Assembly (NCBI GenBank): GCA_030694425.1
Contig: JAUXYI010000011.1
Location: forward strand, 14,301-78,300
Direction: 5' to 3'
Origin: Thermodesulfovibrionia bacterium
GTDB taxonomy: Bacteria > Nitrospirota > Thermodesulfovibrionia > UBA6902 > BMS3Bbin08
DNA length: 64,000 bases
Positions 658-52,997 of this stretch are shown piece after piece; position 1 is the stretch's first letter, and the number at the start of each line of letters is the position of its first letter. Under the pieces are notes generated by a model that saw only the letters and a program-made list of their open reading frames with translations, was not told where the DNA came from and made no database searches. Position numbers and translations under genes: made by a program.

Positions 658-2025
658 TTATTTAAATTGTTTTTTCAACTCTGCTTTTTTCTGGTCAGCA
701 ACAACAACGAGGGTGAAATTTTCGGAGTCGAGATATTTTTTTGCCACTCTGAGCACATCTTCTTTTGTCACCTTGTTGATATATGAAGGATACTTGTCAA
801 TATAATCCATGCCCAGTCCGTAATATTCAACTGCTACAAGGAAATTAGCTATGCGCTGGCTTGTTTCCAGCCTCATGGGAAAGCTCCCTGTAAGGAATAA
901 TTTTGCGCCTGAAAGCTCTGCATCTGATACAGGGAAGTTCCTGACTTTCTTTATCTCTTTTAAAATCTCTTCTATTGCTGTATTGGCAGATTCATTTTTT
1001 GTCTGAAGGCCAACCTCAAAAAGTCCCCCGTACTTATTTGCATCAAAAAAACTGTGAATATCATAAGCGAGCCCTTTTTCCTCTCGTATATTCTGCATAA
1101 GTCTTGATTCAAAACCACCGCCGCCAAGGATATAATTCATAACAGACACTGCATAATAATCAGGATTATCCCTGCTTATGCCCACATGCCCCAGTATAAT
1201 ATTTGCCTGCGTAAGGTCTTTGTCTATGTTTATAATTTTTTGTCCTGAAAATACATGAGTCACCCTCGCCCCCTCCCCTTGAGGGATGGGGATGGGGGAG
1301 GGGGAGGGGTGCCATTCTGAGAAATATTTTTGAAGCAGATTTTTTACTTCTTCCGGTGTCACATCGCCAACAACAGACATTATTGCATTGTTAGGGGCAT
1401 AAAAGGTTGAATGAAAATTTACAAGGTCATCTCTTTTTATTTTGTCAAGGGCCTCAGGGCTGCCTTGAACCAGTCTTCCATATGGATGTATGCCAAATAC
1501 TGCTTTCTTAAACTCCCTTGAGGCAACAAATTCAGGATTTTCCTCTTGAGCCCTTAAACCGCCTTTAATACGCTCTCTCTTTTTATTCAGTTCATCATCA
1601 GGGAATAACGGATTGAGAATTGTATCTGAGAGCAGATCAAAGCCGAGGTCTAAATCTTTTTTTAAAACAGAAAGAGCTATGGTAGCATAATCATTCCCGC
1701 CGGAGGCGCTTAGAGACGCCCCTGCAAATTCCGTTTCTTCACTTATTTGAGAAGCTGTCCTTTTTTTAGTCCCTGCCGTAAGAAGTTCAGCAGTTAAATT
1801 AGCAATGCCTGCCTTTTCTTCAGATTCAACAATACTGCCTGCCTTAATGCCGACAGTAACCCTGACGACAGGCAGATTATGTTTTTCAACTATTAAAAGA
1901 GTTAAACCGTTTTCAAGGACTTCTCGTTTTATATCCAGTGCAAATGCGGTAGAATGCAAAATGCAAAATGCAAAATGCAAAATTAAGGTAAAAAATATAA
2001 TTTTCCAAAATTTTGATTTTTTCAT
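658..2025 (-). CDS. M16-family zinc peptidase, probably non-catalytic partner subunit; signal peptide
   Basis: 455 aa, insulinase-like domains, no HxxEH; 4-nt overlap with upstream M16 gene; N-terminal hydrophobic signal peptide partly encoded by a (GCAAAAT)n array. Confidence 0.8.
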   Translation of the reverse strand: MKKSKFWKIIFFTLILHFAFCILHSTAFALDIKREVLENGLTLLIVEKHNLPVVRVTVGIKAGSIVESEEKAGIANLTAELLTAGTKKRTASQISEETEFAGASLSASGGNDYATIALSVLKKDLDLGFDLLSDTILNPLFPDDELNKKRERIKGGLRAQEENPEFVASREFKKAVFGIHPYGRLVQGSPEALDKIKRDDLVNFHSTFYAPNNAIMSVVGDVTPEEVKNLLQKYFSEWHPSPSPIPIPQGEGARVTHVFSGQKIINIDKDLTQANIILGHVGISRDNPDYYAVSVMNYILGGGGFESRLMQNIREEKGLAYDIHSFFDANKYGGLFEVGLQTKNESANTAIEEILKEIKKVRNFPVSDAELSGAKLFLTGSFPMRLETSQRIANFLVAVEYYGLGMDYIDKYPSYINKVTKEDVLRVAKKYLDSENFTLVVVADQKKAELKKQFK

Positions 2026-3371
2026 TTTGATTTTTGATTTTTTAAGGGTATCAAAATCCCGACTGTCCTTTTATCTTCAATAAGATACTTTTGAGCTACC
2101 CTCTGAACGTCCTCCGGAGCAACCCTCCTTATCCCTTCAAAATATTTATCCCTGAGCCTCCAGTCTCCGAGCATCTCAAACATTGCCAGAATCTCCGCCT
2201 GAAAGAAAATAGAATCCTGTCCCATAATAAAACTTGCCTCTATCTGGTTTTTTGCCTTCTGGACCTCTCTTTCGCCCGGGGCATGTTTCTTTATTTTCTC
2301 AACTTCCTCGTACAAAGCCTTTTCAACCTCATCTATTGACTTGCCCGGCAGCGCTGTTGCATCAAGATAAAAGAGAAAAGGATATTTACCAAAACTGCTG
2401 TATGATGCATCTGCTGAGAGTGCAATCCGTTTTTCATCAATCAAGCTTTTATAAATCCTCGCGCTCTTTCCTCCTGCCAGCACAGCAGCAAGCACCTCAA
2501 GCGCATAACTGTCTTCATTGAAGATATTCGGAGCCTTATAAGCACAAAGGATATAAGGCAGTTCTGCCTCTTTTTTTACAAATATCCTTCTTTCGCCAAT
2601 CTGCTCAGGCTCTTCTATCTTCACGCCTTTAATATCATCGCCTCTTGGAATAGCGCCAAACTCTTTTCTTATCTTAGCCATCAAAGAATCTATATCAATA
2701 TTGCCTGCAATAACTATTAATGCATTATTGGGCATATAATACTTTCTGTAATATTCGTAAAGGTCATCCCTTGTTATTTGCTTCAAATCCTGCATCCAGC
2801 CTATAACAGGCCACCTGTATGGATTATTTTTAAACGCAGTGGACAAAACCTCTTCATACACAAGGCTCTGAGGGTCATCCTCATAACGCATCCTCCTCTC
2901 CTCCATAACGACATCCCGTTCCGCAAGTGTCTCTTTGGGGTCCATAATCAGGTTGTGCATTCTGTCAGCCTCAAGCTCTATGGAAAGATGCAGCCTGTCA
3001 GGTGCAAGTTTCTGGTAATAAAATACATAATCTCTGGTTGTTCCTGCGTTATCAACACCGCCTGCCCTGCTGATAATCTTTGAAAATTCCTTCGACCCAT
3101 ATTTGGGTGTGCCTTTAAACATCATATGCTCAAGAAGATGGCTGAGTCCTGTTTTGCCGAACTGCTCATTAATTGAGCCTGCGTGATACCATATCTGAAA
3201 AACAGCAAGGGGTGCGCTTGGGTCTTTAAGGGCAAGGACCTTTAAGCCATTGGAGAGCACTTCCTCATGTAAAGAGGTATTTTCAGAAGCAAATACATTT
3301 ATGGCTGAATATGTAAAAACTAAACAGGGAAGAAGCAGGGAAAATACTATCAGCTTGAAAGATTTTTTCAT
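2022..3371 (-). CDS. M16-family zinc peptidase, catalytic subunit
   Basis: 449 aa; HLLEHMMFKG = HxxEH zinc-binding motif; signal peptide. Confidence 0.85.
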   Translation of the reverse strand: MKKSFKLIVFSLLLPCLVFTYSAINVFASENTSLHEEVLSNGLKVLALKDPSAPLAVFQIWYHAGSINEQFGKTGLSHLLEHMMFKGTPKYGSKEFSKIISRAGGVDNAGTTRDYVFYYQKLAPDRLHLSIELEADRMHNLIMDPKETLAERDVVMEERRMRYEDDPQSLVYEEVLSTAFKNNPYRWPVIGWMQDLKQITRDDLYEYYRKYYMPNNALIVIAGNIDIDSLMAKIRKEFGAIPRGDDIKGVKIEEPEQIGERRIFVKKEAELPYILCAYKAPNIFNEDSYALEVLAAVLAGGKSARIYKSLIDEKRIALSADASYSSFGKYPFLFYLDATALPGKSIDEVEKALYEEVEKIKKHAPGEREVQKAKNQIEASFIMGQDSIFFQAEILAMFEMLGDWRLRDKYFEGIRRVAPEDVQRVAQKYLIEDKRTVGILIPLKNQKSK

Positions 3372-3518
3372 AATTTAAATACTAACAAAGATAAGAAACA
3401 ATGGTCAAACAGTATGAGCCAAATGGTAAAAGTGCTTTAACATAGAAGTAGAGGGATGCCTTGGTTCTTCTTCACTTTAGAGCTTCCACTCTTCTGCCCT
3501 TCCGGACTGCTTTATGTA

Positions 3519-51309: not shown

Positions 51310-51372
51310 TAGAGAAAGAACACAGAACCCAGATGACAGAACCCAGATTAATTATTTTGTGTCTGTAGTCTG
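51297..51372. repeat. CAGAACACAGA-type palindromic element between guaB and guaA
   Basis: agaacacagaacccagatgacagaacccagat...tctgtagtctgtgttctgtgctctgtcttctgat. Confidence 0.7.
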
Positions 51373-51401
51373 TGTTCTGTGCTCTGTCTTCTGATATATT
51401 T

Positions 51402-52997
51402 ATGCATGAAGAAAAAATTTTAGTCCTTGATTTTGGCTCCCAGTACACCCAGCTTATCGCAAGGCGCGTGAGGGAAAGCAAGGTCTATTCCGAAATATTC
51501 CCTTATAATGTTTCTTTTGATAAAATTATATCCTTTTCCCCTAAAGGAATAATCCTTTCAGGAGGACCTTCAAGCGTGTATGATAAAAATGCCCCTCTGC
51601 CTGACAAAAGAATTTTTGAACTCGGAATCCCGGTTTTGGGAATATGCTACGGCATGCAGCTTATGGCATATTGTATTGGCGGAAAGGTTGCAAAAGCAGC
51701 AAAAAGAGAATACGGACGCGCCGAACTGATTATTGATGACGACTCAGATTTATTGAAAGGAATCAAGTCAGAAGTCAGAAGTCAGAAGTCAGAAGTCAGG
51801 GGACTCGTCACTCGTCACTCGTCACTCGTCACTGTCGTATGGATGAGCCACGGCGACAGGATTGAAGAATATCCCAGGGGTTTCAAACCAATTGCACACA
51901 CAGATAATTCTCCGGTTGCAGCAATGGCTGATAAAAACAGGAGGTTTTATGCCCTGCAGTTTCATCCTGAAGTTGTACATACTGAGCATGGCTCAGAAAT
52001 CTTAAGAAATTTTATATTTGACATATGTAAATGCAAGCCCGAATGGACAATGAAATCATTTATAGAAACAACTGTAGAAGAGATAAAAAACAGGGTTAAG
52101 AATGATAAGGTTGTATGTGCAATAAGCGGCGGGGTTGATTCAGCAGTTACAGCAGTGTTGATGCACAGGGCAATTAAAAAACAGCTTATATGCATCTTTG
52201 TAGATAACGGCGTCCTGAGGACGGGGGAAGCAAAGAAGGTTGAAAATACACTAAAAAAACATTTTCATATGAATATAGTTTGTGTTGACGCATCAAAAAG
52301 ATTTTTAAAAAAACTAAAAGGCGTCACTGACCCTGAAAAAAAGAGAAAAATCATTGGCAATGAATTTATAAGGATTTTTGAAGAACAGGCAAAAAAAATT
52401 AAAGGGGTTAAATATCTTGCACAGGGGACATTATATCCTGATGTCATTGAAAGCACGTCATTTAAAGGTCCTTCAGCCACCATAAAAAGCCATCATAATG
52501 TAGGCGGTCTTTTAAAGGATATGAAGCTTCGGCTTATTGAACCTCTGAGGGAACTTTTTAAAGATGAAGTGAGAATTCTGGGCAGGGAGCTTGGGATGCC
52601 AGAAGAGGTTCTCAACCGGCATCCATTCCCCGGTCCGGGGCTTGCAATAAGGATTATTGGCGAGGTCACAGAACAGAGATGTGGTATCTTACGAAAAGCA
52701 GATGCCATTGTCCTTGAAGAGATTAAAAAATCAGGCCTTTATAATGAACTCTGGCAGGCATTTGCAGTCTTACTGCCTATAAAAACAGTAGGTGTCATGG
52801 GTGATGAGAGGACATATGAAAACGTTGTGGCTTTAAGGGCGGTAAAAAGCGTTGATGGAATGACTGCGGACTGGGCAAGGATTCCTTATGATATTCTTGG
52901 CAATATTTCAAACAGGATAATTAATGAGGTAAAAGGCGTTAACAGGGTTGTATTTGATATAAGCTCAAAGCCGCCAAGCACAATTGAGTGGGAGTAA
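51402..52997 (+). CDS. guaA: GMP synthase (glutamine-hydrolysing)
   Basis: GATase-1 (GICYGMQ), ATP-PPase SGGVDS, C-terminal dimerisation domain; start at [12 protein letters not shown]; carries a 68-nt heptamer insertion in the inter-domain linker. Confidence 0.95.
51766..51833. repeat. Tandem heptamers (AGTCAGA)x4-5 then (CTCGTCA)x4, in frame in guaA
   Basis: Encodes [24 protein letters not shown] between the GATase and ATP-PPase domains. Confidence 0.85.

What the first reader, a model, noticed from the sequence alone, without database searches (positions are those of the whole stretch)
1258..51833. Small repeats inserted in frame inside conserved housekeeping genes
At least eight essential or conserved ORFs carry tandem heptamers or C5/G5 palindromes as clean in-frame insertions that add 7-25 residues without breaking the frame.
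- yggS: 5063-5107 (C7/G7 palindrome) and 5453-5480 (GTTACGA x4)
- M16 peptidase: 1261-1312 (palindrome) and 1943-1975 ((GCAAAAT)n forming its signal peptide)
- mobA-like: 14465-14532
- bioA: 27791-27820
- thiE: 45384-45434
- guaA: 51766-51833

The guaA insert lies exactly in the GATase / ATP-PPase linker. The same units (CTCGTCA, its complement TGACGAG, GTTACGA) recur in different genes, so this is a genome-wide repeat system and not local slippage. That conserved enzymes tolerate these inserts suggests selection for frame preservation or placement in surface loops. It resembles cyanobacterial STRR heptamers, but the rest of the window (Rnf complex, PEP-CTERM, thiH-like gene) does not look cyanobacterial. 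Such in-frame insertions are also potential contingency or phase-variation loci.
Basis: seen in the sequence. Interest (0 to 1): 0.7.

Follow-up and report, generated by a model that had tools for sequence, protein, structure and literature searches.

The report
Heptamer arrays and hairpins inside genes
A groundwater Nitrospirota bacterium carries short 7-base tandem repeats and tiny hairpin repeats, like those known from cyanobacteria, and some sit in frame inside essential enzyme genes at loop positions that tolerate them.

Summary
All eight repeats exist at the stated coordinates, inside six intact, Pfam-confirmed genes (not eight). Period 7 is the only enriched tandem period: 6 exact arrays, 0 in shuffles. 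The window is from an NCBI Thermodesulfovibrionia (Nitrospirota) MAG.

Orthologue alignments show lineage-specific additions:
- guaA +19 aa, bioA +7, yggS +11 and +3, mobA +33.
- thiE carries an array split by a 21-nt hairpin.
- The M16 palindrome replaces 18 aa with 23.
- The M16 heptamer array is the signal-peptide core in all relatives, not an insertion.

The guaA insert lies inside the GATase domain, not in the linker.

There are two kinds of element. Tandem heptamers change by 3 units (21 nt), as in bioA with 1.4 versus 4.4 copies. Small hairpins or palindromes are present or absent among close relatives and often lie inside heptamer arrays. The same loops are hot spots in many relatives, and one strain about 98% identical carries a different cassette in bioA.

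No ±1-unit variation was seen, so phase variation is not supported.

Best reading: STRR/SDR-like selfish repeats filtered by selection for frame, absence of stops and permissive loops. This is a new member of a known kind, apparently undescribed in Nitrospirota.

The parts
1953..1983 (-). (TTTTGCA)x4.4 array encoding the hydrophobic core of the M16a signal peptide (ILHFAFCILH)
   Evidence: TRF gives 100% matches. Translation. The same array-encoded peptide is conserved in orthologues down to about 70% identity. An alternative set of arrays (ACTCGTT + ACTGTTT) builds the signal peptide in other relatives.
2011..2042 (-). (AAAATCA)n array spanning the M16b stop and the M16a start codon
1240..1308 (-). 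C-run/G-run palindrome plus a unique tail in M16a (PSPSPIPIPQGEGARVTHVFSGQ); it replaces an 18-aa ancestral linker segment
   Evidence: Alignment A1: present in P0002, P0006 and P0009; absent in P0003, P0004, P0005 and P0007. DNA comparison. Folds at -17 kcal/mol, z -2.8.
5036..5052 (+). (AGTGATG)x2.4 mini-array in yggS, just 5' of the palindrome
   Evidence: shared with L082
5063..5107 (+). C7/G7 palindrome in yggS (RPIPPLTKGGMKGGV), +11 aa
   Evidence: Absent in L082 (74% identity). Present in a more perfect form in L162. A different palindrome sits at the same site in L083. Folds at -19.4 kcal/mol, z -4.4.
5452..5479 (+). (AGTTACG)x4.0 array in yggS, net +3 aa
   Evidence: Shared with L082, where the unit is AGTTACA. 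Absent in L162 and in all other orthologues.
12280..12309 (.). Intergenic copy of the C5/G5 palindrome family
14421..14532 (+). 33-aa insertion in the MobA-like protein, containing a nested double C5/G5 palindrome (14462-14508) followed by two G-runs
   Evidence: +33 aa against L082 and +29 aa against L088. The two halves are contiguous in PDB 3ngw. Folds at -20.7 kcal/mol, z -4.5.
27790..27820 (+). (ACTCGTC)x4.4 array in bioA ([10 protein letters not shown]), +7 aa
   Evidence: L170 has 1.4 copies at the same place, a difference of exactly 21 nt. L274, a strain 95-98% identical, has the identical array. L171, with flanks about 98% identical, has a three-part cassette instead.
45383..45434 (-). 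thiE: (ACTCGTC)x4.4 array interrupted by a 21-nt hairpin (45399-45419; CCTGCCT-ACCGAGC-AGGCAGG on the coding strand)
   Evidence: L167 has the uninterrupted array, L168 has two hairpin copies, and L169 has a different hairpin in the same array. In the ThiE model, pLDDT is about 65 for residues 11-30.
44775..44840 (-). REP-like inverted pair that supplies the ThiE C-terminal tail (CHPEQSEGSQFQES)
   Evidence: tail pLDDT below 50
45519..45550 (.). Intergenic heptamer array (GTTACTT/ACTCGTC mix) between thiG and thiE
46338..46548 (.). Cluster of four intergenic heptamer arrays (AAAATGC, CTCAAAA, AGTTTTG, AATTTTG) upstream of thiG
   Evidence: The unit CTCAAAA is read in frame inside ThiE and BioA of relatives.
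51317..51393 (.). Inverted pair of heptamer arrays (AGAACAC / TGTGTTC) between guaB and guaA
51765..51833 (+). guaA composite: (AAGTCAG)x5 + GGG + (ACTCGTC)x4.4, 69 nt, aa 132-154, inside the GATase domain
   Evidence: +19 aa against other Nitrospirota. L002 has a 69-nt insert at the same place with (AAGATGC)x4 + (ACTCGTC)x3.
55955..55982 (-). (AAAGTTA)x4 array supplying the lptF stop codon and abutting the lptG start codon
33609..33673 (.). (TCGTCTA)x9.3 degenerate array between rnfA and rnfB

Best explanation
The genome of this Thermodesulfovibrionia bacterium and its relatives is colonised by two kinds of very small repeat with no demonstrated benefit to the host.

(1) Tandem heptamer arrays. 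These grow, shrink and homogenise by slipped-strand mispairing. They draw on a small set of recurrent units (CTCGTCA, AAGTCAG, AGTTACR, AATGCAA, CTCAAAA and others). They are about 5-9 times denser between genes than within them.

(2) Small hairpin or palindromic elements. One is a 21-nt stem-loop. Two others are families of C-run/G-run palindromes about 45-50 nt long. They behave like miniature non-autonomous mobile elements. They are present or absent at orthologous sites in close relatives, they occur in two copies at one site, and they preferentially lie inside or next to heptamer arrays.

Inside genes only a filtered subset persists. Survivors change length by a multiple of 3 nt (for heptamers, steps of 3 units = 21 nt = 7 aa). 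They are read in the orientation that has no stop codon in any of the three phases. They lie in surface loops or linkers that tolerate indels. The inserts are therefore translated as neutral or nearly neutral loop extensions. In M16a an array has been co-opted as the hydrophobic core of the signal peptide.

Shown here: the anatomy, the lineage specificity, the 3-unit steps, hairpins nested in arrays, presence/absence polymorphism, hot-spot sites and low model confidence. Inferred: slippage as the generator, mobility of the hairpins, translation of the inserts, and neutrality.
For: - Period 7 is the only enriched tandem period.
- Density is about 13 arrays in 51.6 kb of coding sequence against about 17 in 12.4 kb of non-coding sequence.
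- bioA has 1.4 copies in L170 and 4.4 in the window, a difference of exactly 21 nt.
- ThiE array-encoded segments are 10 or 17 aa long in relatives, a difference of 7 aa.
- The yggS array is shared with L082 but with unit AGTTACA instead of AGTTACG. The guaA composite is shared with L002 at the same 69-nt length with a different first unit. Both point to homogenisation with length conserved.
- In thiE the uninterrupted array (L167), one 21-nt hairpin (window), two hairpins (L168) and another hairpin (L169) all occur at the same place.
- Palindromes are present or absent among close relatives in yggS, mobA and M16a.
- The same palindrome architecture (ATCCCCC-n4-CCCCC-TTTnnnAAA-GGGGG-n4-GGGGGAT) is seen in unrelated metagenome contigs. 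The CCTGCCT...AGGCAGG hairpin is seen in other contigs, some flanked by heptamers.
- The same loops in ThiE, BioA, YggS and GuaA carry different inserts in many lineages.
- ThiE model: insert pLDDT about 65, against more than 90 for the barrel.
- Heptamer arrays are unstructured, while the palindromes form strong hairpins.
- All six genes are intact; PGAP annotates the three checked (M16a, ThiE, BioA) as intact.
- Precedents exist: heptamers are the most abundant long simple-repeat class in prokaryotes, and heptamer repeats occur in Beggiatoaceae and cyanobacteria (PMC4679880). Four-copy heptanucleotide repeats occur within and between genes in Geobacter metallireducens (PMC2700814). Rickettsia palindromic elements insert in frame in metabolic genes (PMC10969869).
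Against: - No transposase, RAYT or reverse transcriptase lies in the 64 kb, so no mobilising enzyme is identified.
- Simple slippage does not explain why the identical 31-mer (ACTCGTC)4ACT occurs in three different genes.
- It also does not explain why one site carries different units in different relatives.
- Coding arrays are 100% perfect while intergenic ones are 70-90%. This is not predicted by passive decay.
- The L171 cassette replaces more than the array itself, so some turnover is recombinational and not insertional.
- Translation of the inserts is inferred, not observed.
- The structural check rests on one model only; the M16a model failed with pLDDT 40.
Confidence: 0.65

Rival explanations
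1. Contingency (phase-variable) loci. Gain or loss of single heptamer units would switch guaA, thiE, bioA, yggS and the others on and off.
For: The unit length is not a multiple of 3 and the arrays are perfect, which is the substrate for slippage. Heptanucleotide repeats do drive phase variation of hmw1A in Haemophilus influenzae (PMC8262952). Arrays are evidently dynamic, since units are homogenised and cassettes are replaced between strains.
Against: Every comparison shows the same length or a 3-unit difference. The bioA array is identical in strain L274, 1.4 against 4.4 copies in L170, and constant at 4.4 copies in many ThiE and BioA relatives. guaA has 69 nt in both species. The genes are single-copy housekeeping enzymes, not surface or restriction-modification genes. 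Arrays are short (4-5 copies).
Confidence: 0.07
2. The repeats are functional cis-elements. Heptamer arrays would be binding sites for a sequence-specific or single-strand-binding protein, or regulatory RNA or DNA signals. The copies inside ORFs would be maintained for that function, not merely tolerated.
For: - A small set of units recurs across loci and species, and arrays have a preferred size of about 4-5 copies.
- Coding arrays stay perfect over long divergence.
- Many intergenic arrays abut start codons: M16a, ffh, thiG, lptG, guaA.
- Regulatory roles were proposed for TAACTGA repeats (PMC4679880) and for Geobacter heptanucleotide repeats (PMC2700814).
Against: Arrays at a given site are freely replaced by other units or lost in close relatives. 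No conserved position relative to genes is seen. No candidate binding protein is identified. Scans of viral contigs show that arrays of control heptamers are also found: 1 and 12 stretches, against 8, 24 and 58 for the window's units.
Confidence: 0.18
3. Assembly or binning artefact: chimeric joins at low-complexity repeats.
For: The source is a metagenome-assembled genome. The Logan contig L001 ends inside repeats at both ends.
Against: Reading frames continue exactly across every insert. Independent assemblies reproduce them. Other species carry inserts at the same codon positions.
Confidence: 0.01

Closest known systems
Cyanobacterial STRR / tandem heptamer repeats (Mazel et al. 1990, from my own knowledge; Vioque 1997 reported STRR inside the RNase P RNA gene, cited in the reference list of PMC2858038)
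   Same: Short arrays of a few heptanucleotide units occur at many loci. A small set of unit sequences is used per lineage. Arrays are tolerated inside a conserved functional gene.
   Different: The units differ: no tandem CCCCAGT, TTGGTCA or CAACAGT is present. The host is Nitrospirota. Here arrays are read in frame in several essential protein genes.
SDR elements of Nostocaceae (Elhai et al. 2008, Genome Res 18:1484; summarised from my own knowledge and from PMC5861425)
   Same: Hairpin elements of 21-27 nt are embedded within tandem heptamer arrays. Nested or duplicated insertions occur. Mobility is inferred from presence/absence. The thiE element is 21 nt with a 7-bp stem, sits inside (ACTCGTC)n, and is present in two copies in L168.
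   Different: SDRs were reported as confined to Nostocaceae (PMC5861425). Sequence relatedness could not be tested because the SDR sequences are not held. The larger C5/G5 palindromes have no SDR counterpart that I know of.
TAACTGA direct repeats of Beggiatoaceae, cyanobacteria and Bacteroidetes (PMC4679880)
   Same: Arrays have 2-6 heptamer copies and are mostly intergenic. Orientation inside ORFs is constrained by stop codons. The phylogenetic distribution is patchy.
   Different: The unit is absent here as a tandem. There are many unit types, not one dominant unit.
Rickettsia palindromic elements (RPE; Ogata et al. 2000, reviewed in PMC10969869)
   Same: Palindromic selfish elements are inserted in frame in unrelated metabolic genes, at positions compatible with the protein fold.
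   Different: RPEs are about 100-150 bp with conserved peptides and occur in an obligate intracellular alphaproteobacterium. Here the elements are 21-50 nt and are associated with heptamer arrays.
Geobacter metallireducens heptanucleotide repeat elements (PMC2700814)
   Same: Four or five tandem heptamers are found at about 50 loci, both within and between genes.
   Different: The units are GC-rich (GGACCGG, MTYCTGA). They were interpreted as regulatory elements, and no nested hairpins were described.
REP/REPIN elements mobilised by RAYT transposases (PMC3116915, PMC3733652)
   Same: Short imperfect palindromes occur in many copies, as inverted doublets that form hairpins.
   Different: REPs are extragenic by definition and carry GTAG or CGTC tags. 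The C5/G5 palindromes are intragenic here and lack the tag. No RAYT gene lies in the window. Separate REP-like pairs with a CGTC tag do occur at 4316-4384 and 46796-46870.

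Membership tests
Cyanobacterial STRR | Tandem heptanucleotide arrays dispersed at many loci | tested here: met
   30 period-7 arrays by TRF. 6 exact arrays of at least 3 copies, against 0 for other periods and 0 in shuffles.
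Cyanobacterial STRR | Unit sequences STRR1-3 (CCCCAGT, TTGGTCA, CAACAGT) | tested here: not met
   No tandem copy of any of the three in the window.
Cyanobacterial STRR | Host is a (heterocystous) cyanobacterium | tested here: not met
   Nearest relatives are all Nitrospirota/Thermodesulfovibrionia. The source proteins are annotated as a Thermodesulfovibrionia MAG.
TAACTGA direct repeats | Unit TAACTGA in direct repeats | tested here: not met
   7 single copies, 0 tandem.
SDR (small dispersed repeats) | Element of 21-27 nt with a conserved hairpin | tested here: met
   21-nt CCTGCCT-ACCGAGC-AGGCAGG with a 7-bp stem.
SDR (small dispersed repeats) | Embedded within tandem heptamer repeats | tested here: met
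   In thiE it lies inside (ACTCGTC)4.4. L167 has the uninterrupted array, and L168 and L169 have one or two hairpins in the same array. BioA P0250 and ThiE P0153 and P0183 also carry extra residues (7, 14 and 11 aa) in the middle of array-encoded segments.
SDR (small dispersed repeats) | Signs of recent mobility (presence/absence at orthologous sites, several copies) | tested here: met
SDR (small dispersed repeats) | Sequence belongs to one of the SDR1-8 families | not testable with these tools
   The Elhai 2008 paper and the SDR consensus sequences are not held.
REP/REPIN-RAYT | Extragenic location | tested here: not met
   Three of the four C/G-run palindromes of the finding lie inside ORFs.
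REP/REPIN-RAYT | GTAG or CGTC tag at one end | tested here: not met
   The C5/G5 palindromes begin with AATCCCCC and end with GGGGGATT.
REP/REPIN-RAYT | Cognate RAYT (Y1 transposase) gene in the genome | tested here: inconclusive
   None among 56 window ORFs scanned with Pfam, but only 64 kb of the genome is available.
Rickettsia palindromic elements | Palindromic repeat inserted in frame in unrelated protein-coding genes without disrupting them | tested here: met
   yggS, mobA, M16a and thiE.
Rickettsia palindromic elements | Element of about 100-150 bp with a family-specific conserved peptide; Rickettsia host | tested here: not met
   Elements are 21-50 nt and the host is Nitrospirota.
SSR contingency loci | Repeat unit not a multiple of 3 within an ORF or promoter | tested here: met
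SSR contingency loci | Copy number differs by single units among close strains, switching the frame | tested here: not met
   The array is identical in L274. Only 3-unit differences or whole-cassette replacement are seen. Read-level heterogeneity was not tested.
SSR contingency loci | Located in surface, virulence or restriction-modification genes | tested here: not met
   The genes are GuaA, ThiE, BioA, YggS, MobA-like and an M16 peptidase.

The most novel reading that the evidence does not exclude
An active, sequence-directed system like the cyanobacterial SDR/heptamer system operates in Nitrospirota. Heptamer arrays would serve as landing pads for hairpins of 21 nt (3 x 7). Whole array-palindrome-array cassettes would be exchanged at fixed loop positions of essential enzymes, even between strains about 98% identical. 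An as yet unidentified enzyme (an RNA- or ssDNA-templated integrase, a Y1 transposase or a reverse transcriptase) would drive this, shared across phyla by horizontal transfer. That would make these the smallest mobile elements known in a second phylum and would provide a route to finding their machinery by phylogenetic profiling.
Probability: 0.2. Interest if true: 0.75.

Novelty: new member of a known kind. Interest (0 to 1): 0.5.

Why it matters
- It extends the STRR/SDR type of micro-repeat system beyond cyanobacteria and the giant sulfur bacteria. SDR-like hairpins nested in heptamer arrays were reported as confined to Nostocaceae. The new host is an uncultured groundwater Nitrospirota lineage. 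A full-text search for heptamer tandem repeats in Nitrospirae found no description.
- It gives unusually clean natural examples of how selfish micro-repeats enter essential enzymes: 3-unit steps, stop-free orientation, loop hot spots, and co-option as a signal peptide.
- It shows strain-level cassette turnover that could confound assembly, gene calling and orthologue alignment in MAGs. PGAP mis-starts M16a, and contigs break at arrays.
- The many presence/absence states across related MAGs make the still unknown mechanism of SDR-like mobility approachable by comparative genomics.

Tried and rejected
- **Exact-protein look-ups of GuaA** with two alternative starts found nothing. ThiG gave only a 961-nt Logan contig.
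- **The AlphaFold model of M16a** from 25 close homologues failed (mean pLDDT 40.6). It says nothing about the palindrome-encoded segment.
- **The PDB alignment of M16a** was ambiguous, because the homologue has a segment of similar length. This was resolved only with close orthologues.
- **Elhai 2008** could not be read. The SDR comparison therefore rests on memory and on secondary citations.
- **The metagenome scan with YggS** found no near-identical strain (best 74%). Strain-level comparisons came instead from BioA hits.
- **The viral-contig scan for the full double C5/G5 palindrome** found nothing.
- **Viral-contig scans for (CTCGTCA)3, (AAGTCAG)3 and (AGTTACG)3** gave 24, 58 and 8 stretches. 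Two composition-matched controls gave 1 and 12. So the units are not private to this lineage, and I do not claim they are special on this evidence.
- **Rfam** found only two tRNAs. No known RNA family overlaps the arrays.
- **Complementarity between the two guaA arrays** was considered and rejected. The region is less structured than shuffles (z +1.9).
- **In situ origin of the 21-nt hairpin from mutated heptamers** was considered and rejected. Its three 7-nt segments show no similarity to the unit, and the same hairpin stem occurs in unrelated contigs.

Full report
**Observation.**
They lie inside six ORFs that Pfam confirms: an M16 peptidase (658-2025, minus strand), YggS (4845-5579), a MobA-like nucleotidyltransferase (14055-14771), BioA (to 28865), ThiE (44795-45472, minus strand) and GuaA (51372/51402-52997). 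Translation runs through every repeat without a stop.

Period 7 is the only tandem period that is enriched. There are six exact arrays of at least three copies. There are none for periods 5, 6 and 8-15, and none in shuffled sequence. G5/C5 runs number 56, against 35 expected. The palindromes fold at -17 to -21 kcal/mol with z-scores of -2.8 to -4.5, whereas the heptamer arrays are unstructured.

**Source and authenticity.**
The best GuaA relatives are all Nitrospirota/Thermodesulfovibrionia MAGs, mostly from groundwater. ThiE, BioA and M16 of the window are identical to NCBI proteins of a 'Thermodesulfovibrionia bacterium' MAG on a 104,491-nt contig (MDP3296324.1 and MDP3296306.1). PGAP annotates them as intact.

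A Logan contig from SRR13727538 is 100% identical to 45406-46366. A contig from another run (SRR6490384, L274) is 95.5-98% identical over 22776-31348 and has the identical bioA array. Mis-assembly is excluded.

**Are they insertions?**
- **GuaA.** Other Nitrospirota orthologues lack 17-19 residues at this point. The closest species (L002, 81% aa identity) has an insert of the same 69 nt, but made of (AAGATGC)x4 + (ACTCGTC)x3 in place of (AAGTCAG)x5 + (ACTCGTC)x4.4. The insert is at aa 132-154, between the catalytic Cys92 and His198 of the GATase domain. The ATP-PPase P-loop is at aa 252. The claim that it lies 'exactly in the linker' is wrong.
- **BioA.** It has +7 aa against B. subtilis BioA. 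In the relative L170 the site reads AACTCATCACTC, which is 1.4 copies, against 4.4 copies in the window. The difference is exactly 21 nt.
- **ThiE.** Many relatives have the uninterrupted array [11 protein letters not shown]. In L167 this is (ACTCGTC)x4.4, the same 31-mer as in the window's bioA and guaA. The window has that array split by a 21-nt hairpin, CCTGCCT-ACCGAGC-AGGCAGG. L168 has two copies of the hairpin, and L169 has another hairpin in the same array.
- **YggS.** The palindrome adds 11 aa. It is absent from the 74%-identical L082, present in a more perfect form in L162, and replaced by a different palindrome in L083. The AGTTACG array is shared with L082, but there with unit AGTTACA. 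It adds only 3 aa and is absent from L162.
- **MobA.** It has +33 aa against L082 and +29 aa against L088.
- **M16a.** The palindrome, with a unique tail, replaces an 18-aa linker segment with 23 aa. It is present in some relatives of 80-92% identity and absent in others. The (TTTTGCA) array is not an insertion. It encodes the hydrophobic core of the signal peptide and is conserved down to about 70% identity. Other relatives build the same signal peptide from two different arrays, ACTCGTT and ACTGTTT.

**What it is.**
There are two kinds of element.

Tandem heptamer arrays are about five times denser outside ORFs: about 17 in 12.4 kb, against about 13 in 51.6 kb. They use a limited vocabulary of units that recurs across loci and species:
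- CTCGTCA, read as LVTRHSS;
- AAGTCAG, read as KSEVRSQ;
- CTCAAAA, read as TQNSKLK;
- AGTTACR;
- AATGCAA.

Within proteins their lengths change in steps of three units, that is 7 aa.

Small hairpins and palindromes show presence/absence polymorphism and tend to sit within or beside arrays. The C5/G5 architecture ATCCCCC-n4-CCCCC-TTTnnnAAA-GGGGG-n4-GGGGGAT recurs in unrelated metagenome contigs. The CCTGCCT...AGGCAGG hairpin also recurs, sometimes flanked by heptamers.

The affected loops are hot spots. ThiE has two of them, and BioA, YggS and GuaA one each. Different relatives carry different arrays, hairpins or palindromes at the same position. One strain with flanks about 98% identical (L171) carries a three-part cassette in bioA in place of the window's array. 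It consists of GAAGTYA-like heptamers, a C6/G7 palindrome and (ACGCATT)x4.4.

In a ThiE model (mean pLDDT 86), residues 11-30 average about 65 and the REP-derived C-terminal tail is below 50.

The close relative L002 has two composite heptamer inserts inside its leucyl-tRNA synthetase gene. Colonisation of essential genes is therefore a trait of the lineage.

**Mechanism.**
The most economical reading combines slipped-strand expansion, contraction and homogenisation of heptamers with insertion of miniature hairpin elements. Purifying selection then leaves only in-frame, stop-free insertions in loops.

The steps that are shown and those that are inferred are listed under the best explanation. 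Several observations are not accounted for:
- the recurrence of identical 31-mers in different genes;
- the swapping of units at a fixed site;
- the perfection of coding arrays compared with degenerate intergenic ones;
- the lack of any mobilising gene in the window.

**Phase variation.**
The array is identical in L274. It is replaced wholesale in L171, and it differs by three units in L170. ThiE, BioA, YggS and GuaA arrays keep their length across many relatives. No single-unit variant was seen. Read-level heterogeneity remains untested.

**Comparison with known systems.**
The behaviour matches cyanobacterial STRR heptamers and Elhai's SDR hairpins nested in heptamer arrays (from my own knowledge; PMC5861425 states that SDRs were found only in Nostocaceae). 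It also matches:
- TAACTGA repeats (PMC4679880);
- Geobacter heptanucleotide repeats within genes (PMC2700814);
- the in-frame Rickettsia palindromic elements (PMC10969869).

Sequence-level membership fails for STRR1-3, TAACTGA and GGACCGG. A full-text search found no description of such repeats in Nitrospirae.

**Verdict.**
This is a real, well-supported feature. It is a new member of a known kind. It is of moderate interest because of the taxonomic extension, the clean evidence for 3-unit steps and nested hairpins inside essential genes, and the strain-level turnover.

Noticed in passing
window 27458-27545: BioA's conserved N-terminal 22-24 residues lie upstream of the first ATG (27543). A Shine-Dalgarno sequence AAGGAG (27458-27463) is followed by CTG (27471) and ATT (27477). 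PGAP starts the protein at the ATT. The orthologue P0251 has GTG where the window has CTG, so the gene probably uses a non-canonical start codon.
   Followed up: partly
window 1960-2025: PGAP's M16a protein (433 aa) starts 22 residues downstream of ATG 2025. It cuts off the heptamer-encoded signal peptide that is conserved in orthologues, which is probably a mis-called start caused by the repeat.
   Followed up: partly
window 31287-32325: A 139-nt direct repeat (88% identity, 900 nt apart) duplicates the 5' end of the phosphoglucomutase gene. The two copies flank a REP-like inverted pair (31464-31537) and a DUF4143 ATPase fragment (31611-32117). It looks like the scar of an insertion.
   Followed up: partly
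window 4316-4384, 46796-46870, 31464-31537, 44775-44840: Two further families of REP-like inverted pairs are present. One is CGTC-tagged (CGTCATTCCTGCGGAAGCAGGAATCCAG...). The other is of the GTCATTCTGAGCGAAGCGAAGAATC type. The copy at 44775-44840 supplies the last ~14 residues of ThiE (CHPEQSEGSQFQES), a tail shared with relative P0125.
   Followed up: partly
window 25945-26066 vs L274 6600-6775: The ffh-trxB intergenic region, made of AT-rich heptamer arrays, is completely different in a strain that is otherwise 95-98% identical. There it consists of CACAGAW/TCTGTGT-type arrays like those upstream of guaA in the window. Intergenic arrays therefore turn over faster than the coding array 1.7 kb away.
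   Followed up: partly
L002 11034-11165 and 11590-11665: In the closest GuaA relative, the leucyl-tRNA synthetase gene carries two composite in-frame heptamer inserts with units AGTTACA, GTTACGA, ACTCGTY and ACTCATC.
   Followed up: partly
window 21850-21872: A half copy of the C5/G5 palindrome (AATCCCCCTTCATCCCCC) forms the first codons (MKKGDEGGF) of a DUF2784 gene.
   Followed up: no
window 3519-3887, 8725-9473, 12994-13688: Three toxin-antitoxin-type modules lie among the housekeeping genes: a PIN protein, a MazE/PIN pair and a HEPN/nucleotidyltransferase pair.
   Followed up: no
viral contigs L184 11266-11391, L190 7252-7425 and 9821-10001: IMG/VR contigs of very different GC content (36-70%) carry (CTCGTCA)n arrays. 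One has 18 copies at a contig end. Others form inverted array pairs about 150 nt apart. The hosts are unknown.
   Followed up: no
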